Below, one piece after another: positions 28,786 through 58,715 of a stretch of DNA of 64,000 bases. The notes beneath the pieces were generated by a model. The model was given only the letters and a program-made list of their open reading frames with translations. It had not been told where the DNA came from and searched no databases. The position numbers and the translations under genes are program-made. The DNA lies in contig JBHPGB010000001.1 of NCBI GenBank assembly GCA_042571085.1, positions 3,190-67,189 on the forward strand, read 5' to 3'. How positions within the stretch are numbered: position 1 is the stretch's first letter; each line of letters starts with the position of its first letter. The stretch comes from Patescibacteria group bacterium (GTDB lineage: Bacteria; Patescibacteriota; Minisyncoccia; Phycocordibacterales; JBHPGB01).

Positions 28786-28894
28786 AATACTTTAAAAAAT
28801 CCCGATTTCGGGATAATGGTGATATATTACAGGAGTTATGCAAATAAGTCAAATTCATGACAGGGTCATATAATATAGACTTTTTGACTATAAT

Positions 28895-29353
28895 ATGCGA
28901 TTATTTGAGCAGTTTGATCCCTTAAGCAGCCAAGGAGATATCATGGATATATTCACTCTAATTATTTTGTGGGTAGTAATAGGCATTCTTGTGGGTAAAT
29001 ATAGATGGGAACTTGCCTATGGTGTGGATTTTAAAAATTTGAAATTAGGTGATCGTTTTTTGCTTTCGATAAATTGGCCAGTCACGTATGTTGTGTGCGG
29101 CCCGGATATTTCGTGGTTTATCAGACATCCTAAAAAGCCATCACTTGCTTTTGATTGTTTTTCTGATGAAGATGCATTTATCAAAACATTTGAGACTAAA
29201 TATGGATATTGTGCAGCCATGATGTTTTGGGGGTTTCCTTGTTTCATATTTTCAACTACTGTCTTTGTGCTTGGTTGCATCTTAAGGATTATGTATGAAA
29301 TGTTAGTACCTGTTTATAAAATATGCATGTGGTGCATTAAATGCATCATATAG
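28895..29353 (+). CDS. Hypothetical membrane protein (Cys-rich C-terminus)
   Basis: 152 aa; 3-4 TM; ...CMWCIKCII. Confidence 0.45.
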   Translation: MRLFEQFDPLSSQGDIMDIFTLIILWVVIGILVGKYRWELAYGVDFKNLKLGDRFLLSINWPVTYVVCGPDISWFIRHPKKPSLAFDCFSDEDAFIKTFETKYGYCAAMMFWGFPCFIFSTTVFVLGCILRIMYEMLVPVYKICMWCIKCII

Positions 29354-29409
29354 TAATAATGATGAATATGTTGTATTGTTAATACTGCTCGGGATGAGCA
29401 GTATTTTTT

Positions 29410-30246
29410 ATGGAAAAAGTCAAATTAAATCAGTATATAGCTCAGGCCACTGGCATGTCCCGTAGGGAGGCCAGTGAGGAGATAAAAGCTGGGAAAATCA
29501 AGATAAATGGGCGCAAAGCTCTTTTTTGGGAGGAAATTGACCCTAAAGAGGACAGTATTCTATACCAAGGCAAGAAAATCACCTTACCAGAGCATACTAC
29601 TACAATTATCCTAAATAAGCCTGTTGGGTATGTAACAACCCGAGATGATGAATTTGGAAGGGATATCGTGATGGATTTGTTGCCAGAAAATTTACAATAC
29701 CTAAAACCGGTTGGCCGACTTGATGCGGATAGTGAAGGTCTGCTTATCCTCACTGATGACGGAGATAAGATATATGAATGGACACATCCAAAATTTGAAC
29801 ACGAAAAAGAATACGTCTTAACGCTCAAAAAACCAATTACCGAAGAATTGCTGCAAAAATTTATAAAGGGTGTGAAGCTACAGGAGGGAATTGCCGTGGC
29901 TGACTATGTAGAGCCTATCTGGAAATCTCATTCCGGCTCTATGTCTCCAAATTTTGCTCGGAAACTCGTAAAAAATTCTTCAAAATATCCCGATATTCCT
30001 CAGAAATTTTTTACTTCGTCCCGAACCAAATTTGAAAACATATCCTCGAAAGCAGATTCCCAGACAGGCTCTGAAAAGATCAGTACAAAAGAATTAAACA
30101 TAGTGATCCACCAAGGATGGAAGAGGCAACTGCGCCGCATGGCAGAAAAATGCGGGAATGAAGTGACAAAACTAAAGCGTATTCGTATGGGAGACATTAC
30201 TCTAGATGACTTGCCAAGTGGTGAGTGGAAGAAGGTTGATTTGTAA
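29410..30246 (+). CDS. S4-domain pseudouridine synthase (RsuA/RluB family) with C-terminal extension
   Basis: S4 RNA-binding N-terminus; GRLDADSEGLLILTDDG catalytic motif. Confidence 0.85.
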   Translation: MEKVKLNQYIAQATGMSRREASEEIKAGKIKINGRKALFWEEIDPKEDSILYQGKKITLPEHTTTIILNKPVGYVTTRDDEFGRDIVMDLLPENLQYLKPVGRLDADSEGLLILTDDGDKIYEWTHPKFEHEKEYVLTLKKPITEELLQKFIKGVKLQEGIAVADYVEPIWKSHSGSMSPNFARKLVKNSSKYPDIPQKFFTSSRTKFENISSKADSQTGSEKISTKELNIVIHQGWKRQLRRMAEKCGNEVTKLKRIRMGDITLDDLPSGEWKKVDL

Positions 30247-44295: not shown

Positions 44296-44994
44296 TTAAT
44301 ATTCCTCAGTAGTATTTAGAAAATATTCAGCAAAAAAATGATTTTTTGATTTTGAAAGCAATTTGATTATTTGTGCAACACCAGGCATAAGTTTTCTTTG
44401 CTTCATATCATTTGTACTCATCCATGAACAAGTTCCTATAGATGAATCTTCTATAAATTTTCCAACAATATTTTTTCCTACAAAAATATGACAGAGCATG
44501 TGTGTGATTAATTTTTCCTCATCGCTAATATGTAAATAGATATCTCCTCTATGTTTCAAGACCCCTGTTAAACCAACTTTTTCTTTTAATTCACGCCCTG
44601 CGCTTTCTTGTATTCTCTCTTCAAGATGAATTTTTCCATAGGGGAATCCGAACTGGTTAATCAGAGGTTGACGCTTTCTCTTGTAGATAAGATACTCACC
44701 TTTTTTGTTTGTTAAGACTAAAAGGGTCACGATTTTTGGCTGAATGCGCTCGTCAAAGCTTTTCAGAGTCACCCTGTCTACATATTGTTTACCTTTTGCA
44801 GATAGAACATACGCGCCTGTTTGTTTAGAAATGTAGCCACTGGAAATTATCTTTTTCAGGTGATACATGAACATATTTCCTTCAACCGATTTTGGTTTCA
44901 GGTCTCTATATCTTGCTTTTCCGAGTAATGTGAGTTTTTTCAATATGTGTTTTTGTAAATCGTGCATAGTAGTTAGAGTATACGTAAAACTCAA
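44296..44994 (-). CDS. Winged-HTH plus Nudix-domain protein (regulator-like; Nudix box with E-to-K substitution)
   Basis: N-terminal wHTH; Nudix box GKIHLEERIQESAGRELKEKVGL. Confidence 0.7.
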   Translation of the reverse strand: MSFTYTLTTMHDLQKHILKKLTLLGKARYRDLKPKSVEGNMFMYHLKKIISSGYISKQTGAYVLSAKGKQYVDRVTLKSFDERIQPKIVTLLVLTNKKGEYLIYKRKRQPLINQFGFPYGKIHLEERIQESAGRELKEKVGLTGVLKHRGDIYLHISDEEKLITHMLCHIFVGKNIVGKFIEDSSIGTCSWMSTNDMKQRKLMPGVAQIIKLLSKSKNHFFAEYFLNTTEEY

Positions 44995-45077
44995 TTTGAG
45001 TCAATTTTTTTTGACTAGACTCCATATAAGGTCGAGGGCTATCATGATTATGGGTGTTCTTTTCAAAAGCATAGGAG

Positions 45078-45959
45078 ATGATCATGACATGCATAGATCG
45101 TATTTATAGTGTATCCGCACTGGTCGGATCCGGAACCTGTAATGGGAAATGTGCCTTTTGCGCTGGTGAGTATTTGCGACCTCAGGCAGAAAATCCCGAT
45201 ACGGAAAAGTATTGGAAAAATTTTAAGTCTGCGATCAGGCTTTGTGCGAGATATGGCGGGTGGTCTTTATCGCTCACAAGTAGCGGTGAGCCGACTTGCG
45301 ATCCGAATGCGGTAACAAAAGCGCTTGAAGCTTATCAAGAGTGTGCGCAAGAAGGCGCCTACTTTCCTAATGTAAATTTGTTTACGAATGGAATTGAATT
45401 CGGTAGAGACAAATTTTGCGATAAATGGTTGCCAATTTGGAAGGGTCTTGGTCTGACAAATATTGCCGTCTCAATACACTCCACAAGTATTGAAAAGCAA
45501 GCTGAAGCTTATGGTCTACCAAAGTACCCAGAGTTTAACACCATATTCAACAATATTCGCAAACATGGTGTTGGGCTAAGGTGCACATTGTTGCTAAGAA
45601 AAGGAGAGGTGGATAATGCTGCTCGTTATAAAGAAGCTGTTCATCATTTGATAGAGCGACATGGTGTAGACAACATTACGTCTTGGCCCGTAGCTGAACC
45701 AGATGGTGTACGAAGTGAATTTACTCCATCACGGCTTGGTATGCTATCAATACGTAATTGGCTTAGGAAAAATACCATATTGTGCCACGGGCATTCGTGG
45801 GGTGGTGGAGTCTATGACTACAATGGCAACATTCTCAGACTGACCGACTATGTGACAAAACATAATCGACGAAAGGATTTTGTGAGGCAGCTCGTAGTGT
45901 TCCAGGATGGAACAGTTGCTTATTCGTGGATTAAAGAAGGTGCGTTGTGCATGAAGTAA
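45078..45959 (+). CDS. Radical SAM enzyme, paralog 1 (unassigned subfamily)
   Basis: CNGKCAFC (CX3CX2C), SSGEPT glycine-rich SAM motif, TNG ribose motif; 293 aa. Confidence 0.75.
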   Translation: MIMTCIDRIYSVSALVGSGTCNGKCAFCAGEYLRPQAENPDTEKYWKNFKSAIRLCARYGGWSLSLTSSGEPTCDPNAVTKALEAYQECAQEGAYFPNVNLFTNGIEFGRDKFCDKWLPIWKGLGLTNIAVSIHSTSIEKQAEAYGLPKYPEFNTIFNNIRKHGVGLRCTLLLRKGEVDNAARYKEAVHHLIERHGVDNITSWPVAEPDGVRSEFTPSRLGMLSIRNWLRKNTILCHGHSWGGGVYDYNGNILRLTDYVTKHNRRKDFVRQLVVFQDGTVAYSWIKEGALCMK

Positions 45960-46032
45960 CATATTCGGGCGGTGGATGTATTTATGTTCATCGCCCATTA
46001 TTGTTTATCCGACTACTTATATGAGGTGAGTT

Positions 46033-46833
46033 ATGGAAAATAGTCTTTCACTTTTTGTTGGTACAAGAAAATGCAATGCTCATTGTGGACACTGTGCTGG
46101 CAAGGTTCATCGTAGGCATGCTCCTACCAAAGATGGGATTGTGGATGAAGAGTTGGTAATTAAAACACTTAGAGACTGCTATGTCAGTGGAGCGCGACGC
46201 TTAACGATCAGCAGTAGTGGAGAACCAACACTGTCTCCAATTTCAGTGACTAAAGTATTTCAGATCATTGATAATATGCGAAGAAAGGAAGGTGTTGTAT
46301 ATTCGCCAATAAGTCTTTACTCAAATGGTATTAGGATTGGAGAAGACCAGTGTTTTTCTGAAGAATATCTTCCATTGTGGAAGGCACTTGGTTTGACTAA
46401 GGTTTATATAACAATCCATGATATCAACGAGCATGAAAATGCTAAGATTTATAGAATTGCAGAATATCCAAAATTGGTGACGATAATTGAGAGGATTCAC
46501 GATGCAGACTTGTTGATGAGAGCAAATCTTGTACTCAGTCGTAACACAACGTGTGAACTTGGGAAATTCATTTCAATTGTCAAACATTTGGAAGATATTG
46601 GCGCAGATAGTATTTCCGCGTGGCCAATTCGTGGGATTGACGATGAGGTTGATAAGGAAAGAGCTCCTATTGCTTCTGAGATGAATAAAATGAGTGAGTG
46701 GGCTTTGCAATATTCCAGACCAGGATTTGAATTGCGTGTGTTGGGGGAGGAGAATCGAATCGCATATCAATCAGGTCAGAAGTTAACATTATTTCCCGAC
46801 GGTAGTTTATCGGGGACATGGTGTAATAACTAA
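46033..46833 (+). CDS. Radical SAM enzyme, paralog 2
   Basis: CNAHCGHC, SSGEPT, SNG; 266 aa; same motif spacing as paralog 1. Confidence 0.75.
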   Translation: MENSLSLFVGTRKCNAHCGHCAGKVHRRHAPTKDGIVDEELVIKTLRDCYVSGARRLTISSSGEPTLSPISVTKVFQIIDNMRRKEGVVYSPISLYSNGIRIGEDQCFSEEYLPLWKALGLTKVYITIHDINEHENAKIYRIAEYPKLVTIIERIHDADLLMRANLVLSRNTTCELGKFISIVKHLEDIGADSISAWPIRGIDDEVDKERAPIASEMNKMSEWALQYSRPGFELRVLGEENRIAYQSGQKLTLFPDGSLSGTWCNN

Positions 46834-46894
46834 ACATAATCTATCTAAATGATATTCCGCCACGTCTGTGGCGGATTTTTTTTGTTTGTGGAGA

Positions 46895-46914
46895 TGGGGA
46901 GAATGTCCCGCAGT
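46895..46914 (-). repeat. Duplicate of the 3'-terminal 20 nt of the tmRNA gene (attachment-site-like direct repeat)
   Basis: TTTGTGGAGATGGGGAGAAT identical to 47137-47156. Confidence 0.6.
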
Positions 46915-47074
46915 TACTAATCTTTTTGCTTGAAGGAATGCTTCACATGCTATTTGATAGAGAATCGGGGTCAAGTCACATCAATATTTTGTTCGTGCTT
47001 CGCACTCCAAAATATTGTGTGCTTCCTCCCCGGACTCGCTTCCCATTCTTCCAGAATGGGTCCCGGCTCCGTCT

Positions 47075-47160
47075 TTCGATTCTCCCCATCTCTCACAAAC
47101 GCAAACGCCGCCAAAGCAATGCTTTGGCGGCGGCGTTTTGTGGAGATGGGGAGAATCGAA
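47075..47160. repeat. About 85-bp near-perfect palindrome built from inverted copies of the tmRNA T-arm/acceptor (TTCGATTCTCCCCATCTC) around an 11-bp GC hairpin
   Basis: Left arm 47075-47117, loop AAT, right arm 47121-47160; inner GCCGCCAAAGC/GCTTTGGCGGC. Confidence 0.65.
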
Positions 47161-47685
47161 CTCCCGTGCAAATAATGCTTCTGAATGAGTCTACAAAGGT
47201 TAGTACACTTTGGTTTGTTTAGAAGAGTGAGCTAAAAAGTGAACAAAATTTCTCACACCTCGATTCTCTATGTTTCGGTATTGTATCGAGAAATAATACT
47301 CTTTCCGATTAAATACTTCTTAAGAAAACCTCAGAATTTTAGACGAGACAAAGTAAAAAATATAAAGAATATCCTTAGATATTTTGAATATTTTTTGCAA
47401 AGTCGTAGTCAAAATTATGGTGTTTTCAAGGAGTAGTTAATCGGAAAGGGTATAAAACAAGACCTAGTCTGAAAAATATTACACTCAGATTTCACCTATC
47501 AAACTTTAGTGAACTGAACGCCGGCTTAGGCTAAAGCGTAAGCTGGAGAAGCAAAGTATGGGCTAACCATTGCTTTTGCTTTTTGTGACAAGTTTGCACT
47601 TATCGTGTGTAGCCTTTTGAATAGTTACTACAGCTATCCTTCGCACATGCAAAAGGGAAATCATCTGTCGATACCGATCACCCCC
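47141..47685 (-). ncRNA. ssrA: tmRNA (ssrA) candidate, unusually long (about 545 nt) with about 200-nt AT-rich insertion before the T-arm
   Basis: 5' GGGGGUGAUCGGUAUCGACAG (tmRNA 5' consensus), acceptor pairing GGGGGUG/CAUCUCC with G3-U wobble, tag ORF ending ...ASPAYALA-UAA, 3' GGGAG-UUCGAUU-CUCCC T-arm; adjacent to smpB. Confidence 0.6.
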
Positions 47686-47736
47686 AATCTATATAATTAA
47701 TTAACTGTGCAGCTAATTATATAGATTGGAAGAAAT

Positions 47737-48183
47737 CTAAAATTGCTTAATATCTCTAGCAACCTCTCTTTCAACGTCTCGTTTTTTAATGCTCTCGCGT
47801 TTGTCGTATTTCTTCTTTCCTTTAGCTATAGCCAGCTCAAGCTTTATCTTATTACCCTTAGTATAAACACTTATTGGCACTATTGTCAAGCCCTTCTGGC
47901 TTTCTGCTCCAGCAAGCTCTTTCAGTTCCTTCTTATTTAGCAAGAGTTTTCTGGTGCGTGCAGGGTCGTAGTCTTTCGGTGTATTTGCTGGCTGATATGG
48001 TGGAATTGTTGCCCCAACCAAAAATGCTTCATTTCCGCGTATAATCACGTGCGCACCTTCAAAAGAACCCTGATTATTCTTCAGACTTTTCACTTCAAAA
48101 CCGAGTAAAACCATACCGGCTTCAAATTTATCAAGCAGCTCATAATTGAAACGTGCTTTTTTGTTTTGTATCAATGTAGGCAT
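47737..48183 (-). CDS. smpB: SsrA-binding protein SmpB
   Basis: 148 aa; canonical SmpB (KARFNYELLDKFEAG...). Confidence 0.93.
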   Translation of the reverse strand: MPTLIQNKKARFNYELLDKFEAGMVLLGFEVKSLKNNQGSFEGAHVIIRGNEAFLVGATIPPYQPANTPKDYDPARTRKLLLNKKELKELAGAESQKGLTIVPISVYTKGNKIKLELAIAKGKKKYDKRESIKKRDVEREVARDIKQF

Positions 48184-50555: not shown

Positions 50556-50586
50556 GCGCGTAAGCGGCATTGGTAGAGCGCAGAAG
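50556..50586 (+). pseudogene. Degenerate 5' half of a tRNA paralog (to anticodon stem), interrupted by IR-bounded insert
   Basis: GCGCGTAagcggcaTTGGTAGAGCGCAGAag vs intact GCGCGTAtagctcagTTGGTAGAGCGCAGAgc. Confidence 0.5.
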
Positions 50587-50605
50587 TATATCAAAATAAT
50601 TTTAA
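50587..50605. repeat. Left 19-bp perfect inverted repeat TATATCAAAATAATTTTAA flanking the tRNA
   Basis: Exact reverse complement at 50719-50737. Confidence 0.8.
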
Positions 50606-50627
50606 AATAATATATGGAAATATGAGT

Positions 50628-50700
50628 GCGCGTATAGCTCAGTTGGTAGAGCGCAGAGCTTATACCTCTGTGGTCCTAGGTTCAAGTCCTAGTGCGCGCA
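50628..50700 (+). tRNA. tRNA with anticodon UAU (tRNA-Ile decoding AUA by anticodon; 73 nt, no encoded CCA)
   Basis: Cloverleaf: acceptor GCGCGTA/TGCGCGC, D-arm GCTC-AGTTGGTA-GAGC, anticodon stem CAGAG/CTCTG loop CTTATAC, T-arm CTAGG-TTCAAGT-CCTAG. Confidence 0.85.
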
Positions 50701-50718
50701 CTCATCATTTCATATAGA

Positions 50719-50737
50719 TTAAAATTATTTTGATATA
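50719..50737. repeat. Right 19-bp perfect inverted repeat TTAAAATTATTTTGATATA
   Basis: Reverse complement of 50587-50605. Confidence 0.8.
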
Positions 50738-50763
50738 CCTCTGTGGCCCTAGGTCTCCCTGAG
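50738..50763 (+). pseudogene. Degenerate 3' portion of the interrupted tRNA paralog
   Basis: taCCTCTGTGGcCCTAGGTctccc vs intact taCCTCTGTGGtCCTAGGTtcaag. Confidence 0.45.
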
Positions 50764-56197: not shown

Positions 56198-56264
56198 AAT
56201 CAAAGATTTGTTCCGAAACGCACTGTAAATATATTCGCTCCGCTCATTATTTACAGGCGCCTAC

Positions 56265-56285
56265 GGTTCGAATCCCTCACTCTCC
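56265..56285 (+). repeat. Inverted-orientation copy of tRNA-Ser 3' end
   Basis: GGTTCGAATCCCTCACTCTCC on + strand. Confidence 0.6.
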
Positions 56286-56353
56286 TTTATACGTTGTTGC
56301 GAAAATATTATTAATCGAGCAGTGTTTCGAAGACTGGTAAATAAACTACAGTG

Positions 56354-56440
56354 CGGAGAGTGAGGGATTCGAACCCTCGGTCCGTTTTCACGAACACATC
56401 CTTAGCAGGGATGCGCTTTCGACCACTCAGCCAACTCTCC
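56354..56440 (-). tRNA. tRNA-Ser (anticodon GCU), class II with long variable arm
   Basis: GGAGAGT-TG-GCT-GAGTGGTCGAA-AGC-G-CATCC-CTGCTAA-GGATG-TGTTCGTGAAAACGGACC-GAGGG-TTCGAAT-CCCTC-ACTCTCC-G. Confidence 0.88.
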
Positions 56441-56574
56441 GCACTATATTCTATTATTTAATTTTTGTTTTGTTCGGGATTCTCTCCATGGCTTGGCAGG
56501 GTAGAGATACTCTTTCGAACCCTAAAGGACTGCTGTTTGCAAATCAATCGCTTCGCTCTTGAGCAAACAGGGAG

Positions 56575-56683: not shown

Positions 56684-57409
56684 TTAATGCGCAATTGTGA
56701 AAGCTGTCACTTTTTTTGCACCAGATTTTTTCAAAACACGCTTCGCTTCTCTAAGAGTGGCGCCGGTTGTTACAACATCATCTATCAGAATAATATTTCG
56801 CCCTAGCACGCGCTCGGGATTTTTTACCTCAAAACATCCGTGTAAATTTTGCAGGCGCTTTTTTCTGTCTTTTATCTCCATTTGATTTTTTGTGTCCCTT
56901 GTCTTGTAAAGGACATCTTTTTCAAGTTTGAAAGATGAATCATCTATAAAAGACAAATGTTTTGCTATAAGGGCAGATTGGTTATATCCGCGCTTAGCTA
57001 AGCCCTTTGTTGATAGGGGGATTGGAATTATCAATGGTCGTTCCATGCTACCAAATGTGTGCATGTCTTGTAATTCATCAAGAATGTGTTCATACAAAAG
57101 CTCAGCCAACGGCTCAGCAAACATAGTCTTCTCGCGGTATTTTAATCTCCAGATTACTTTTTTTATAATTTTATTTCTGTAGTCAAATAGTGGATATATC
57201 CATGAGTATTTTTGGGGCGCTATTGTGCGCGTAATTTTTGCGGCACAATCATTACATAATATTTCGTTGTATTTTTTGCATCCAATACAAAAAACTGGAA
57301 ATAAAAAATTTAGAAATCCATTGTATGTTGGAAAAACATGTTTCTTTAAAAAGCTTTTCATTATATAATAGTATAGCCCCTTCAAAATAAATTCGCACAT
57401 TTTTGTCAT
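56684..57409 (-). CDS. comFC: ComF-family competence protein (double zinc ribbon + phosphoribosyltransferase domain)
   Basis: N-terminal CxxC pairs; PRTase motif IILIDDVVTTGAT. Confidence 0.85.
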   Translation of the reverse strand: MTKMCEFILKGLYYYIMKSFLKKHVFPTYNGFLNFLFPVFCIGCKKYNEILCNDCAAKITRTIAPQKYSWIYPLFDYRNKIIKKVIWRLKYREKTMFAEPLAELLYEHILDELQDMHTFGSMERPLIIPIPLSTKGLAKRGYNQSALIAKHLSFIDDSSFKLEKDVLYKTRDTKNQMEIKDRKKRLQNLHGCFEVKNPERVLGRNIILIDDVVTTGATLREAKRVLKKSGAKKVTAFTIAH

Positions 57410-57432
57410 ATATTTTCGTCTGTATCACACTG

Positions 57433-57465
57433 ATTCAAAATTCAATGTAGCTAAGGCTATATCTC
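57433..57465 (-). promoter_or_regulatory. Inverted copy of the 33-bp ndk-upstream motif, here upstream of comFC in the comFC/pilM divergent region
   Basis: GAGATATAGCCTTAGCTACATTGAaTTTTGAAT on minus strand. Confidence 0.6.
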
Positions 57466-57527
57466 ATTTCTCATCAGCACAATACAAACAAAAATCTATT
57501 GCCAAAAATACACTAATTTATTTTGAA

Positions 57528-58715
57528 GTGACTACCAATAAACTTTATATGGAAAACCCTCTAAAAAATATTTTAAAAACAGGGACAGATTTTTTTAAAA
57601 AAGAAGACAGTGTTATCGGTATTGATATCGGCTCTTCTTTTTTAAAGGTTGTGCAGTTGAAAAAAAAGCACGGGAAGGCTGTACTAGAAACATACGGTGA
57701 GCTTGCTCTTGGTCCCTATGCTGGTTTAAGTGTTGGGCAAGCAACAAATCTTGATGTCCCTAAAATAGCTGAAGCTCTCGATGATCTGTTGAGAGAATCA
57801 AATGTTACTACAAAAAATAGCGCATTATCTATACCTCTGTCTTCGAGCTTGTTATCTATAATGGAAATGCCAGATCTTGATACTAAGCAGCTTGCAAAAA
57901 TGATTCCTGTTGAGGCGCGAAAATATATTCCTGTGCCAATAACAGAAGTAACGCTTGATTGGTGGATCGTACCTAAGACCCCACAGGCAATCGGTGTAGA
58001 AACAACAACAGAACCAGTCGTTATTCCCAAAAAAGAAAAAATAAAAACAAAGAGGGTTGGCAAGGTGGATGTTTTGGTTGTTGCGATACACAATGATGTT
58101 GTAAGTAAATATCAAGAAATTATAAAAGCGTCTGGGCTACAAAACTCATTTCTTGAGCTAGAGGTTTTTAGTACTACACGATCAACATTTGGTAGTCACG
58201 CAAGCCCAGTTATGATTTTAGATGTCGGGGCAGGTAGTACCAAAATAGCTGTTGTTGAATATGGAATAATAAAGAATCAGCACATCATAAATAAGGGGTC
58301 TCAAGATATAACAGTTGCTATTTCAAAGTCACTCGGTGTTGATATGAAAAGAGCCGAAGAATTAAAGAAAGAGGTTGGGCTCAAAGGATCTAACGAAGAT
58401 GAAATCAATAAAAAGGTCTCAGAAATCGCGCAGCTAACAACAGATCATGTGTTTTCAGAAGTAAGTCGAGTATTATTGTCATACCAGAGACAGCACAACA
58501 AAACCATAGGGCAAGTTATCTTATCAGGAGGAGGTGCGCTACTTAAAGGATTACACGAATTTGCTGTAGAGCGACTTGAAACAGAAGTGGTGTTTGCTGA
58601 TCCGTTTTCAAAAATTGATGCACCTGCATTTCTTGAGCCCGTATTAAAGGAGGCGGGTCCTGAGTTTGCGGTTTCTCTTGGTTTGGCTCTTAGAAAATTA
58701 CAGGAATTTGAATAG
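57528..58715 (+). CDS. pilM: Type IV pilus assembly ATPase-fold protein PilM
   Basis: Actin-like fold; VIGIDIGSSFLKVV N-terminus. Confidence 0.85.
   Translation: MTTNKLYMENPLKNILKTGTDFFKKEDSVIGIDIGSSFLKVVQLKKKHGKAVLETYGELALGPYAGLSVGQATNLDVPKIAEALDDLLRESNVTTKNSALSIPLSSSLLSIMEMPDLDTKQLAKMIPVEARKYIPVPITEVTLDWWIVPKTPQAIGVETTTEPVVIPKKEKIKTKRVGKVDVLVVAIHNDVVSKYQEIIKASGLQNSFLELEVFSTTRSTFGSHASPVMILDVGAGSTKIAVVEYGIIKNQHIINKGSQDITVAISKSLGVDMKRAEELKKEVGLKGSNEDEINKKVSEIAQLTTDHVFSEVSRVLLSYQRQHNKTIGQVILSGGGALLKGLHEFAVERLETEVVFADPFSKIDAPAFLEPVLKEAGPEFAVSLGLALRKLQEFE

What the first reader, a model, noticed from the sequence alone, without database searches (positions are those of the whole stretch)
47141..47685. 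Unusually long tmRNA candidate (about 545 nt) next to smpB, with G3-U wobble acceptor and an about 200-nt AT-rich insertion before the T-arm
The minus strand starting at 47685 reads GGGGGUGAUCGGUAUCGACAG, the canonical tmRNA 5' end. A tag reading frame ends ...A-S-P-A-Y-A-L-A-UAA at positions 137-160. The only sequence able to close the acceptor stem (CAUCUCC-A, giving G1-C, G2-C, G3-U, G4-C, G5-U, U6-A, G7-C) lies at 47141-47148 behind a textbook T-arm GGGAG-UUCGAUU-CUCCC. That makes the gene about 200 nt longer than typical tmRNAs. The extra segment (about 47220-47420) is AT-rich and may be an intervening sequence or inserted element.
Basis: partly seen in the sequence, partly recalled or inferred. 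Interest (0 to 1): 0.7.

Follow-up and report, generated by a model that had tools for sequence, protein, structure and literature searches.

The report
Mobile hairpin element inside a tmRNA gene
The ribosome-rescue RNA gene (tmRNA) of this tiny-genome Patescibacteria bacterium is real but about 160 bases too long, because a small mobile palindromic DNA element sits in a loop that appears to tolerate it; a second copy sits in frame inside a protein gene, as described so far mainly in Rickettsia.

Summary
The tmRNA gene is real: Rfam RF00023 covers 47138-47685 (-) end to end, directly after smpB. It has a G3.U acceptor, a T-arm and the tag ANLSQKAKAMVSPYFASPAYALA*. The extra segment is 156 nt (47297-47452, 28% GC), not about 200 nt at 47220-47420. 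It lies in loop 1 of pseudoknot PK3, about 130 nt before the T-arm. It folds as one long imperfect hairpin with 16-nt terminal inverted repeats and 2-3-nt flanking direct repeats. Removing it in silico gives a 389-nt tmRNA that ARAGORN calls; the intact gene is missed. None of about 85 relatives has an insert at this site. A contig identical over smpB and the first 229 nt of ssrA lacks it. A homologous 162-nt palindrome lies in frame inside a pseudouridine synthase gene (29911-30072). A sister genome has the exact empty site there. The insert is therefore a copy of a mobile MITE-like element that behaves like Rickettsia palindromic elements, which are also known in tmRNA genes. It is not an intron. 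The ssrA 3' half also differs by 23% from the insert-free allele, so the gene looks like a recombinant. Whether the hairpin stays in the mature RNA is untested.

The parts
47138..47685 (-). ssrA (tmRNA) gene. The mature RNA probably runs 47685..47141 (545 nt). The gene encodes CAA, not CCA, after the discriminator.
   Evidence: Rfam RF00023 matches the full model at 50.2 bits, E 7.8e-17. The full-length MFE keeps the acceptor stem and T-arm.
47737..48183 (-). smpB, 148 aa, immediately upstream of ssrA
   Evidence: ORF list. Pfam PF01668 on the identical product. RecG, tRNA-Ile, FtsH, SmpB and ssrA keep the same order in relatives.
47526..47597 (-). Tag reading frame (tmRNA nt 89-160): resume codon GCA, 23 codons, stop UAA. 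It encodes ANLSQKAKAMVSPYFASPAYALA.
   Evidence: ARAGORN on the insert-free allele L083 and on the in-silico excised gene. Near-identical tags occur in relatives L004, L007 and L088.
47297..47452 (-). Inserted palindromic (MITE-like) element, 156 nt, 28% GC. It has 16-nt terminal inverted repeats TACYCTTTCCGATTAA (one mismatch), containing a perfect 12-nt pair: CTTTCCGATTAA at 47448-47437 and TTAATCGGAAAG at 47312-47301.
   Evidence: It is absent from all relatives aligned and from allele L083. It folds as one hairpin: 191-nt context -50.7 kcal/mol, z -6.8; element alone -47.7 kcal/mol with 116 of 156 nt paired. The TIR occurs only here in the window. Excision restores an ARAGORN-callable tmRNA.
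47453..47455 (-). Left copy of the flanking direct repeat TTA. The right copy is at 47294-47296. This is a possible target-site duplication. By homology with the rlu copy, a 2-nt TA duplication with the element at 47296-47450 is equally possible.
   Evidence: Read directly from the sequence. The 2-nt GA duplication at the rlu copy is verified against an empty site.
47457..47464 (-). PK3 stem 1, 5' strand GGUCUUGU. It pairs with ACAAUACC at 47277-47284. Sequence identity to allele L083 ends at 47457.
   Evidence: Covariation in 20 tmRNAs: all 8 pairs show double changes and 91% of cells are paired.
47264..47292 (-). Rest of PK3: stem 2 5' strand UUCUC (47292-47288), stem 1 3' strand ACAAUACC (47284-47277), stem 2 3' strand GAGAA (47268-47264).
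   Evidence: Covariation: 5 of 6 stem 2 pairs show double changes. All strands are intact in the window.
47138..47293 (-). 3' part of ssrA (3' part of PK3, PK4, helix 2 3' strand, T-arm 47149-47165, acceptor 3' strand plus discriminator 47141-47148). It is only 77% identical to the insert-free allele and carries an acceptor strand of the 'CAUCUCC' type.
   Evidence: Searches show 0 mismatches in the first 229 nt against 23% divergence here. In 35 relatives, CAUCUCC pairs only with 5' GGGGAUG; the window alone combines it with GGGGGUG. The helix 2 duplex is still stable, -20.0 against -16.5 kcal/mol in L083.
47106..47132 (-). Intrinsic terminator-like hairpin after ssrA (12 pairs, 9 G-C, then a U-rich tail)
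29911..30072 (+). Second, homologous copy of the palindromic element. It is 162 nt including one copy of a GA duplication. It lies in frame (54 codons) in an RsuA/RluF-type pseudouridine synthase gene (29410-30246).
   Evidence: Local alignment score 44, against 19 +/- 2.8 (max 34) in 1000 shuffles and max 32 in 751 genomic windows. It folds at -55.8 kcal/mol, z -6.1. Pfam and PDB alignments show 54 extra residues. The empty site is in the sister MAG GCA_042577165.1 (L096/P0122, 98% identical protein). None of the other 118 listed homologues shows the full-length hit's combination of 278 aa, 100% identity and 100% coverage; most are 216-268 aa, and only P0122-P0126 were aligned and shown to lack the 54 residues.

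Best explanation
The gene is a genuine, standard (not permuted, not intron-bearing) ssrA. It has been invaded by a small non-autonomous mobile palindromic element, MITE-like and analogous to Rickettsia palindromic elements.

Shown:
- The 156-nt element has terminal inverted repeats and short flanking duplications.
- It sits in loop 1 of pseudoknot PK3, between the 5' strand of stem 1 and the 5' strand of stem 2.
- It folds on itself into a roughly 58-bp imperfect hairpin whose two ends meet.
- The following parts all remain intact: acceptor stem with G3.U, T-arm, helix 2, resume codon and tag frame, and both PK3 stems.
- A homologous copy interrupts a pseudouridine synthase gene in frame.
- That second copy is an insertion polymorphism between two closely related genomes, so the family has moved recently.

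Inferred:
- A transposase supplied in trans (not found in the window) moved the element.
- Copies persist only where the host molecule tolerates them, here a pseudoknot loop on the outer arc of tmRNA and probably a surface loop of the enzyme.
- The precursor is transcribed through the element, and the tmRNA still works with SmpB. The hairpin either projects from PK3 or is trimmed.

Second inference: the allele is a recombinant. From the element onward the sequence is 23% diverged from an allele that is identical upstream, and the 3' acceptor strand is of a type otherwise paired with a different 5' strand. The element therefore probably arrived together with a foreign 3' half, or marks the edge of the exchanged tract.
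For: - The tmRNA identity and intact parts are.
- The insert is delimited against 8 and then 11 relatives and against allele L083.
- PK3 is supported by covariation, which places the insert in loop 1.
- The hairpin fold has z -6.8, and 116 of 156 nt are paired.
- Excision in silico turns an ARAGORN miss into a call.
- The second copy is significantly similar: 0 of 1000 shuffles and 0 of 751 genomic windows reach the score.
- It lies in frame in a pseudouridine synthase gene.
- The empty site is in the sister MAG, with a GA duplication.
- The insert is found in two assemblies, the window and L081, which differ at 2 of 6447 nt.
- A third contig, L084, ends exactly at the junction 47457.
- For the recombinant allele, L083 has 1 mismatch in 1242 nt upstream against 77% identity downstream, and the window's acceptor combination is unique among 36 tmRNAs.
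- The window and the sister MAG are 99.97% identical around ssrA but 94.7-98% identical around rlu.
- As precedent, RPE elements lie inside the Rickettsia tmRNA and RNase P RNA genes and in frame in protein genes (PMC2229807).
- An unrelated ~125-nt hairpin lies in the PK4 region of relative L031.
Against: - Only two copies are known.
- None was found in about 100 related loci, in viral contigs, or, with the exact 12-nt repeat pair, in JGI metagenomes.
- No transposase or matching autonomous element was seen.
- The flanking duplication at ssrA is 2-3 nt in AT-rich sequence, so it is weak on its own. No empty site of the same 3' haplotype is available.
- There are no RNA data, so function and the fate of the hairpin are inferred.
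- The Rfam score is only 3 bits above the gathering threshold.
- The recombinant reading rests on one 1.4-kb metagenome contig (L083), which could be a chimeric assembly.
- No displaced native 3' half and no integrase were found.
Confidence: 0.72

Rival explanations
1. The origin is the same (an inserted palindrome), but the fate differs. The long double-stranded hairpin is cut out of the precursor by RNase III or a similar enzyme and the ends are not rejoined, as with intervening sequences in rRNA. The result would be a two-piece tmRNA held together by the acceptor stem, helix 2 and PK3 stem 1.
For: The hairpin offers more than 25 nearly continuous base pairs at its base. The three helices that would hold the pieces together are intact. 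Stable-RNA genes in this genome sit in long leader/trailer helices, which suggests processing of double-stranded RNA. CPR rRNA genes are full of insertions (PMC11270868).
Against: There are no RNA data. No RNase III gene lies in the 64-kb window (the rest of the genome was not seen). The known two-piece tmRNAs come from permuted genes (PMC11915505). The stem is AU-rich with many mismatches.
Confidence: 0.22
2. The insertion has inactivated ssrA, so this is a recent pseudogene in a strain that has lost trans-translation or is losing it.
For: The Rfam score falls from 80.8 bits (allele L083) to 50.2 bits. ARAGORN fails. The insertion is strain-specific.
Against: Every functional element is intact, and there is no other lesion. 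smpB is intact and identical in four contigs. The 3' half shows compensatory differences from L083 rather than decay. The insert-bearing allele occurs in two genomes that differ by 2-5% elsewhere. PK3 loop 1 is outside the tRNA-like and mRNA-like domains.
Confidence: 0.08
3. The extra segment is a lineage-specific structural expansion of PK3 that grew in place, like the expansions in relatives L014, L006 and L031. On this reading it is not a mobile element.
For: tmRNA lengths in this clade range from 340 to 523 nt, with extra hairpins at several places.
Against: It is absent from an allele whose 5' 229 nt are identical. It has terminal inverted repeats and flanking duplications. A significantly similar copy lies in an unrelated protein gene and has a proven empty site.
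Confidence: 0.04
4. The hairpin and the diverged 3' half were delivered together by a genomic island, or by another site-specific integrating element, that targets ssrA and carries a replacement 3' gene fragment.
For: tmRNA genes are classic island integration sites (PMC11915505). Identity breaks exactly at the element. A 20-nt direct repeat of the ssrA 3' end lies 252 nt downstream. No relative has the downstream genes next to smpB.
Against: No integrase lies within 10 kb and no integrase motif was found in the window. No displaced native 3' half occurs in the 47 kb downstream. There is no G+C anomaly. The 20-nt repeat belongs to a conserved downstream element that relatives also have. The crossover would lie in PK3, which is not among the usual integration sites as far as I know (own knowledge, not checked here).
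Confidence: 0.1
5. The structure is an assembly artefact: a chimeric join or a hairpin artefact created by the assembler.
For: The data come from metagenome-assembled genomes. Palindromes can be assembly artefacts, and the two unrelated hits look like such artefacts.
Against: The same structure appears in two assemblies that differ at 2 of 6447 nt here and by 2-5% elsewhere. The arms are only about 80% complementary, unlike fold-back artefacts. The insert restores a loop of normal length when removed. A second diverged copy keeps a reading frame open.
Confidence: 0.03
6. The segment is a self-splicing intron (group I or group II) at a new site in tmRNA.
For: Group I introns are known in tmRNA T-loops, and the authors of the tmRNA database state that other sites may have been missed (PMC11915505).
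Against: No Rfam intron model matches at E <= 10. At 156 nt, a simple two-armed hairpin leaves no room for a catalytic core. The homologous copy lies inside a protein-coding frame and is read through.
Confidence: 0.01

Closest known systems
Rickettsia palindromic elements (RPE), including the copies inside the Rickettsia tmRNA and RNase P RNA genes (Ogata et al. 2002, as summarised in PMC2229807)
   Same: Both are 105-165-nt elements whose transcript is one long stem-loop, with about 12 contiguous terminal pairs. Both insert into conserved protein genes in frame and into a tmRNA gene without destroying the recognisable parts. Both occur in a small, host-dependent genome.
   Different: There is no sequence similarity that I could test, the phylum differs (Patescibacteria), and only two copies have been seen so far. 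The tmRNA here is a one-piece standard form and the site is PK3 loop 1. One copy has a proven empty site with a 2-nt duplication. The tmRNA allele is also recombinant.
Bacterial MITEs in general (Correia/NEMIS, ERIC, RUP, BOX; review PMC2229807)
   Same: They are small (100-200 bp), have terminal inverted repeats, have short target duplications that often end in A or TA, form a long stem-loop when transcribed, and encode no transposase.
   Different: The copy number is unknown, and no parent insertion sequence has been identified. Most MITEs are intergenic; here both known copies lie inside genes.
Group I introns in the tmRNA T-loop (PMC11915505)
   Same: They also interrupt an ssrA gene, make it longer than 500 nt and cause gene finders to miss it.
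   Different: Those introns have a catalytic core, sit at four subsites of the T-loop, and are spliced with ligation. This element is a plain hairpin in PK3 with no intron signature.
Intervening sequences of rRNA genes removed by RNase III, and the insertions in CPR rRNA genes (PMC11270868)
   Same: An extra helix is inserted in a loop of a stable RNA, with patchy distribution among strains. CPR lineages are known for such insertions.
   Different: Over half of the CPR rRNA insertions are group I-like, and the insertions often encode LAGLIDADG endonucleases. Removal is documented for rRNA, not for this tmRNA.
Two-piece tmRNA from circularly permuted genes (alpha- and betaproteobacteria, cyanobacteria)
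   Same: [quoted passage not shown]
   Different: The gene here is colinear, not permuted. The Rfam tmRNA_permuted model scores 19.7 bits against a threshold of 47.

Membership tests
tmRNA, standard one-piece form (Rfam RF00023) | Match to the covariance model above the gathering score, over the full length | tested here: met
   50.2 bits against 47, model positions 1-374, E 7.8e-17. The margin is small because of the 156-nt insert.
tmRNA, standard one-piece form (Rfam RF00023) | tRNA-like domain: a 7-bp acceptor stem with G3.U70, a T-arm, and a discriminator A | tested here: met
   GGGGGUG pairs with CAUCUCC, with G3.U and an extra G5.U. The T-arm is GGGAG-UUCGAUU-CUCCC. The discriminator is A. 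CCA is not encoded (CAA).
tmRNA, standard one-piece form (Rfam RF00023) | mRNA-like domain: an Ala resume codon, a short frame and a tag ending in hydrophobic or Ala residues | tested here: met
   The frame runs from GCA at nt 89 to UAA at nt 158-160 and gives the tag ...PAYALA. ARAGORN returns it for the excised gene and for allele L083.
tmRNA, standard one-piece form (Rfam RF00023) | Pseudoknot PK3 with two stems | tested here: met
   86% of cells are paired against 62% in shuffles. 13 of 14 pairs show double changes in 20 sequences. Both stems are present in the window.
tmRNA, standard one-piece form (Rfam RF00023) | Aminoacylation, SmpB binding and tagging activity | not testable with these tools
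   This needs RNA or protein data. smpB is adjacent and intact.
MITE / RPE-like palindromic mobile element | Small size (about 100-200 bp) and no coding capacity for a transposase | tested here: met
   The copies are 156 nt and 160-162 nt.
MITE / RPE-like palindromic mobile element | Terminal inverted repeats, with the transcript folding as a long stem-loop | tested here: met
   The TIR is 16 nt with one mismatch. Fold z-scores are -6.8 and -6.1.
MITE / RPE-like palindromic mobile element | Target-site duplication | tested here: met
   The rlu copy has a GA duplication, checked against an empty site. The ssrA copy has TTA or TA, read from the sequence only, which is weak.
MITE / RPE-like palindromic mobile element | Presence/absence polymorphism at a precise site (evidence of movement) | tested here: met
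   The rlu site is empty in GCA_042577165.1. The ssrA site is empty in L083.
MITE / RPE-like palindromic mobile element | Multiple related copies in one genome | tested here: inconclusive
   Two copies lie in 64 kb, and the profile search finds no more in the window. The rest of the genome could not be searched.
MITE / RPE-like palindromic mobile element | A cognate autonomous element or transposase with matching ends | tested here: not met
   None was found in the window, the loci or viral contigs. Many MITE families, RPE included, also lack a known parent (own knowledge).
Group I / group II intron | Conserved catalytic core recognised by covariance models | tested here: not met
   No intron family matches at E <= 10 in 46800-47500. 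The only matches are hairpin-shaped miRNA models far below their thresholds.
Permuted (two-piece) tmRNA gene | The 3' acceptor piece is encoded upstream of the coding piece, with a match to RF04321 | tested here: not met
   The gene is colinear. RF04321 scores 19.7 bits against 47.
Genomic island integrated in ssrA | An integrase gene, a direct repeat of the crossover segment and a displaced 3' gene fragment | tested here: not met
   There is no integrase and no displaced fragment. The 20-nt repeat belongs to a conserved downstream element.
RNase III-processed intervening sequence | Absence of the segment from the mature RNA | not testable with these tools
   This needs transcript data.

The most novel reading that the evidence does not exclude
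The hairpin is cut out of the precursor by a double-strand-specific RNase, so this bacterium makes a two-piece tmRNA from a colinear gene. That would be a second evolutionary route to split tmRNA. In addition, the palindrome family may act as a breakpoint or vehicle for allele replacement, which would explain why the ssrA 3' half changes from 0% to 23% divergence exactly at the element.
Probability: 0.2. Interest if true: 0.7.

Novelty: new member of a known kind. Interest (0 to 1): 0.5.

Why it matters
1. Annotation. ARAGORN misses this gene and Rfam passes it by only 3 bits, so genomes like this one may be scored as lacking tmRNA. The published tmRNA gene forms (standard, T-loop intron, permuted) do not include a class for elements inserted in pseudoknot loops.

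2. tmRNA structure. If the RNA is active, this is a natural experiment showing that PK3 loop 1 can carry a 156-nt helix.

3. Genome biology. Palindromic selfish elements that live inside conserved protein genes and stable-RNA genes are best known from Rickettsia. A family that behaves the same way in an ultra-small Patescibacteria genome suggests this way of surviving is a recurrent feature of reduced genomes. My literature search found nothing on such elements in CPR.

4. Population genetics. The locus shows strain-level allele replacement in a group for which recombination data are scarce.

Tried and rejected
- ARAGORN on the window finds no tmRNA. The insert explains this.
- An Rfam search at E <= 10 over 46800-47500 gives only miRNA-hairpin noise and no intron.
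- BLAST and nhmmer with the element against the window and about 100 loci found no close copy. The weak nhmmer hit at 29951-30032 (E 0.32) led to the second copy.
- The 12-nt repeat pair gave nothing in viral contigs. Longer repeat and core patterns gave nothing in viral contigs.
- An exhaustive HMMER search with the 54-aa peptide encoded by the rlu copy found one unrelated repeat protein at E 2.5e-4.
- The island hypothesis failed on four checks: Pfam of ten downstream genes, a search for a displaced 3' half and for L083's flank, the G+C profile and motif scans for integrase and RNase III. All were negative.
- Attempts to extend the L083 haplotype or the window's own contig by exact-protein look-ups failed. 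FtsH and the right-edge ORF are not on record. The other look-ups returned only the sister MAG and short contigs.
- An SRP RNA or RNase P RNA reading of the GC-rich downstream element was dropped, because the motif is not conserved in relatives and there is no Rfam hit.
- The helix 2 energy comparison does not separate a native from a foreign 3' half; both pair well.
Full report
**1. Observation.** The minus strand from 47685 reads GGGGGUGAUCGGUAUCGACAG. Rfam's tmRNA model RF00023 aligns end to end to 47138-47685 (-) at 50.2 bits (gathering score 47, E 7.8e-17). It leaves 156 nt unaligned inside one hairpin loop. ARAGORN finds only tRNA-Ile(UAU) and tRNA-Ser in the window and no tmRNA. smpB (148 aa, 47737-48183, -) ends 51 nt upstream. 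The tag frame is nt 89-160 and encodes ANLSQKAKAMVSPYFASPAYALA*. The gene lacks an encoded CCA (it has CAA).

**2. Organism and relatives.** SmpB's closest relatives among GTDB species representatives are Patescibacteria (Paceibacteria, Campbellbacteria, Nomurabacteria and similar), at no more than 70% identity. The gene order RecG, tRNA-Ile(UAU), FtsH, SmpB, ssrA is conserved. ARAGORN or Rfam finds tmRNAs of 340-523 nt right after smpB in these relatives, with closely related tags such as ANLSQKAKAVVSNYFFAPALALA in L004. At 545-548 nt the window's gene is the longest of the 36 I mapped.

**3. Where the extra RNA is.** Alignments with 7 and then 10 relatives place a single block of about 160 nt after the conserved ACUAG. 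No relative has anything at that site.
- I aligned the PK3 region of 20 tmRNAs and counted pairs for a two-stem pseudoknot. 86% of cells pair, against 62% in shuffles, and 13 of 14 pairs show changes on both sides. The slid controls drop to 37-64%.
- In the window, stem 1 is GGUCUUGU (47464-47457) with ACAAUACC (47284-47277). Stem 2 is UUCUC (47292-47288) with GAGAA (47268-47264).
- The insert lies between the 5' strands of stem 1 and stem 2, which is loop 1.
- It is therefore about 130 nt upstream of the T-arm and occupies 47297-47452.

**4. Anatomy of the insert.**
- It is 156 nt with 28% G+C.
- It is a near-palindrome over its whole length. The two 78-nt arms align at about 80%, and 116 of 156 nt are paired at -47.7 kcal/mol.
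- In a 191-nt context the fold is -50.7 kcal/mol, against -27 +/- 3.5 for shuffles (z -6.8).
- It stays a separate domain in the MFE of the whole 548-nt RNA, which also keeps the acceptor stem and T-arm.
- Its ends are 16-nt inverted repeats TACYCTTTCCGATTAA (one mismatch, 12 nt perfect), which occur nowhere else in the window.
- TTA flanks it on both sides (47455-47453 and 47296-47294).
- Deleting the element and one TTA in silico gives a 389-nt sequence that ARAGORN calls as a tmRNA with the expected tag. The intact sequence is not called.
- No Rfam intron family matches at E <= 10.

**5. A population polymorphism and a recombinant allele.** An exact-sequence look-up of SmpB found four contigs.
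- L081 (NCBI GCA_042577165.1, 17-kb contig) matches the window over 6447 nt with 2 mismatches and carries the insert.
- L083 (JGI 3300032259) matches 48698-47457 with 1 mismatch in 1242 nt. It then lacks the insert and continues with a tmRNA 3' part only 77% identical to 47293-47136. Its tmRNA is 397-399 nt, scores 80.8 bits in Rfam, is called by ARAGORN and carries the same tag.
- L084 (ENA ERZ27251186) ends exactly at 47457. The same sample holds the window-type downstream genes (L094). That is what an assembly-graph branch would produce.
- The differences between the two 3' parts include paired changes in PK4 rather than decay.
- In 35 relatives, the 5' strand GGGGAUG goes with CAUCUCC-type 3' strands, and GGGGGUG goes with CAC(C/U)UCC. 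L083 follows this rule. The window alone combines GGGGGUG with CAUCUCC, which gives a G5.U pair.
- Helix 2 still pairs well (-20.0 kcal/mol).

I infer that the window's allele joins the native 5' 229 nt to a foreign 3' 156 nt, with the element at the joint. Two further facts are consistent with recent exchange at this locus. The window and GCA_042577165.1 are 99.97% identical around ssrA but 94.7-98% identical around the rlu locus.

I found no integrase, no displaced native 3' half and no G+C anomaly. A classical island is therefore unlikely. This inference rests on a single short contig, so I give it about 0.6.

**6. The element is one of a family, and the family moves.**
- A sensitive search gave a weak hit at 29951-30032. 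That region is the only other palindrome of comparable size in the window (fold -55.8 kcal/mol, z -6.1).
- The two elements share both ends and a core: AAAAAAT.TTCAAAATATC..GATATTC...ATTTTTTACTT.GTC.CG.
- Their local alignment score is 44. Dinucleotide shuffles give 19.2 +/- 2.7, palindrome-preserving shuffles give 19.3 +/- 2.8 (maximum 34 over both sets), and 751 other windows of the same genome give a maximum of 32.
- This second copy lies inside an RsuA/RluF-type pseudouridine synthase gene (29410-30246; Pfam PF00849 and S4). It is in frame and adds 54 residues between positions that are adjacent in solved homologues.
- Only the full-length hit P0121 (278 aa, 100% identical) has the insert. 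Most of the other 119 listed homologues are 216-268 aa, and the five I aligned (P0122-P0126) lack the 54 residues.
- P0122 is 224 aa, is 98% identical outside the insert and comes from GCA_042577165.1.
- At the DNA level the sister genome reads ...CTATGTAGA|AAAGATCAG.... The window has 162 extra nt at that point, with GA duplicated. That is a clean insertion polymorphism with a target-site duplication.
- By homology of the ends, the ssrA copy could equally be read as TA|CCCTTTCC...GAGTAT|TA.

**7. What I could not find.** I found no third copy in the window or in about 100 loci. There were no matches in viral contigs. The single JGI metagenome scan gave only chance palindromes. No protein elsewhere carries the 54-aa peptide. 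I found no transposase. The genomes themselves could not be searched beyond the window.

**8. Mechanism.**

Shown:
- The gene is a standard ssrA with all recognisable parts intact.
- It carries a self-folding palindromic element in PK3 loop 1.
- The element family has inserted recently at another site.

From established knowledge:
- tmRNA needs the tRNA-like domain, helix 2, PK1 and the tag frame.
- PK2 to PK4 lie on the outer arc and tolerate replacement in E. coli (my own knowledge, not checked here).
- Palindromic elements inside the Rickettsia tmRNA and RNase P RNA genes, and in frame in protein genes, are regarded as neutral or slightly harmful passengers (PMC2229807).

Inferred:
- The element is transcribed as part of the precursor.
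- Its closed stem brings the two ends of loop 1 together, so that PK3 can still form.
- The RNA remains functional.

Whether the hairpin is kept (my preference, about 0.5) or clipped by RNase III to give two pieces (about 0.2) is open. Inactivation is less likely (about 0.1).

**9. Comparison with what is known.** The 2025 tmRNA database paper recognises three gene forms: standard, group I intron in the T-loop, and permuted. It notes that introns at other sites may have been missed (PMC11915505). This case is none of the special forms. It is a standard gene with a MITE in it, and the closest precedent is the RPE copy in Rickettsia tmRNA. CPR rRNA genes are known for insertions, but over half of those are group I-like and the insertions often encode homing endonucleases (PMC11270868). 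I found no paper in the library that links MITEs or palindromic elements to Patescibacteria. Relative L031 has an unrelated ~125-nt hairpin in the PK4 region. An 89%-identical SmpB relative has a ~170-nt palindrome right after smpB. Hairpin insertions around ssrA therefore seem to recur in this clade.

**10. Verdict.** 'Inserted element' is the right reading and 'intron' is not. The case is a new member of a known kind: RPE-like or MITE insertion in a tmRNA gene. Two features add interest. The same family sits in frame in a protein gene with a proven empty site, and the ssrA allele looks recombinant at the element. Interest 0.5.

Noticed in passing
window 46885-47097 (-), just after the ssrA terminator; homologues at L088:4905-5084, L007:4947-5129, L019:4980-5147, L013:5256-5428, L069:4564-4775(-), L006, L047, L050, L021: A conserved, G+C-rich (45-57%), structured element of about 170-215 nt directly follows ssrA on the same strand in several Paceibacteria. 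Its 5' end is complementary to the tmRNA 3' end. Its 3' end repeats the genome's own tmRNA 3' end; in the window this is an exact 20-nt direct repeat, ATTCTCCCCATCTCCACAAA. RNAalifold finds 42 pairs, 25 of them with compensatory changes in 6 sequences. There is no Rfam match. It could be an unknown RNA with a tmRNA-like acceptor end, a processing structure, or a conserved pair of attachment sites.
   Followed up: partly
window 50581-50743 (tRNA-Ile) and 56260-56455 (tRNA-Ser): The tRNA genes sit in long helices formed by complementary leader and trailer sequences: 25 nt at 96% around tRNA-Ile(UAU) and 22 nt at 86% around tRNA-Ser. tRNA-Ser also has an inverted copy of its own 3' end about 70 nt downstream (26 nt, 92%), the same arrangement as at ssrA.
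   Followed up: no
window 50628-50701, and the same position in many relatives: A tRNA-Ile with anticodon UAU, unusual for bacteria, is conserved next to ftsH and recG across these Patescibacteria.
   Followed up: no
window 47684-47729 (-): A perfect 16-bp AU-rich hairpin (CCAAUCUAUAUAAUUA ... UAAUUAUAUAGAUUGG) lies between smpB and ssrA. Its 3' arm overlaps G1-G2 of the tmRNA (I3).
   Followed up: no
window 28856-29407 (ORF 28895-29353, 152 aa, no Pfam hit): A segment of about 550 nt between infC and the pseudouridine synthase gene is absent from the sister genome GCA_042577165.1 (L096). This is a second strain-level indel close to the element copy.
   Followed up: no
L085:632-826 (ENA ERZ27251186, SmpB 89% identical): A long palindrome of about 170 nt, unrelated in sequence, lies immediately after smpB where ssrA would be expected. 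The contig ends before any tmRNA.
   Followed up: no
L031:4857-5379 (tmRNA nt ~320-445): The 523-nt tmRNA of a Nomurabacteria MAG carries a hairpin of about 125 nt, closed by a 16-bp stem, in the PK4 region. This is an independent hairpin insertion at another tmRNA site. L014 (482 nt) and L006 (449 nt) have smaller expansions after the tag.
   Followed up: partly
window 57374-57534: A third long inverted repeat (35-nt arms, 80% complementary, 91 nt apart) spans the divergent intergenic region between ORFs 56684-57409 (-) and 57528-58715 (+). The element profile found no similarity to the ssrA/rlu family.
   Followed up: no
window 44296-46833: Two paralogous radical SAM genes (32% identical to each other) and a NUDIX gene with an extra N-terminal domain lie downstream of ssrA. 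None of the 80 relatives has them near smpB. Their function was not examined.
   Followed up: no
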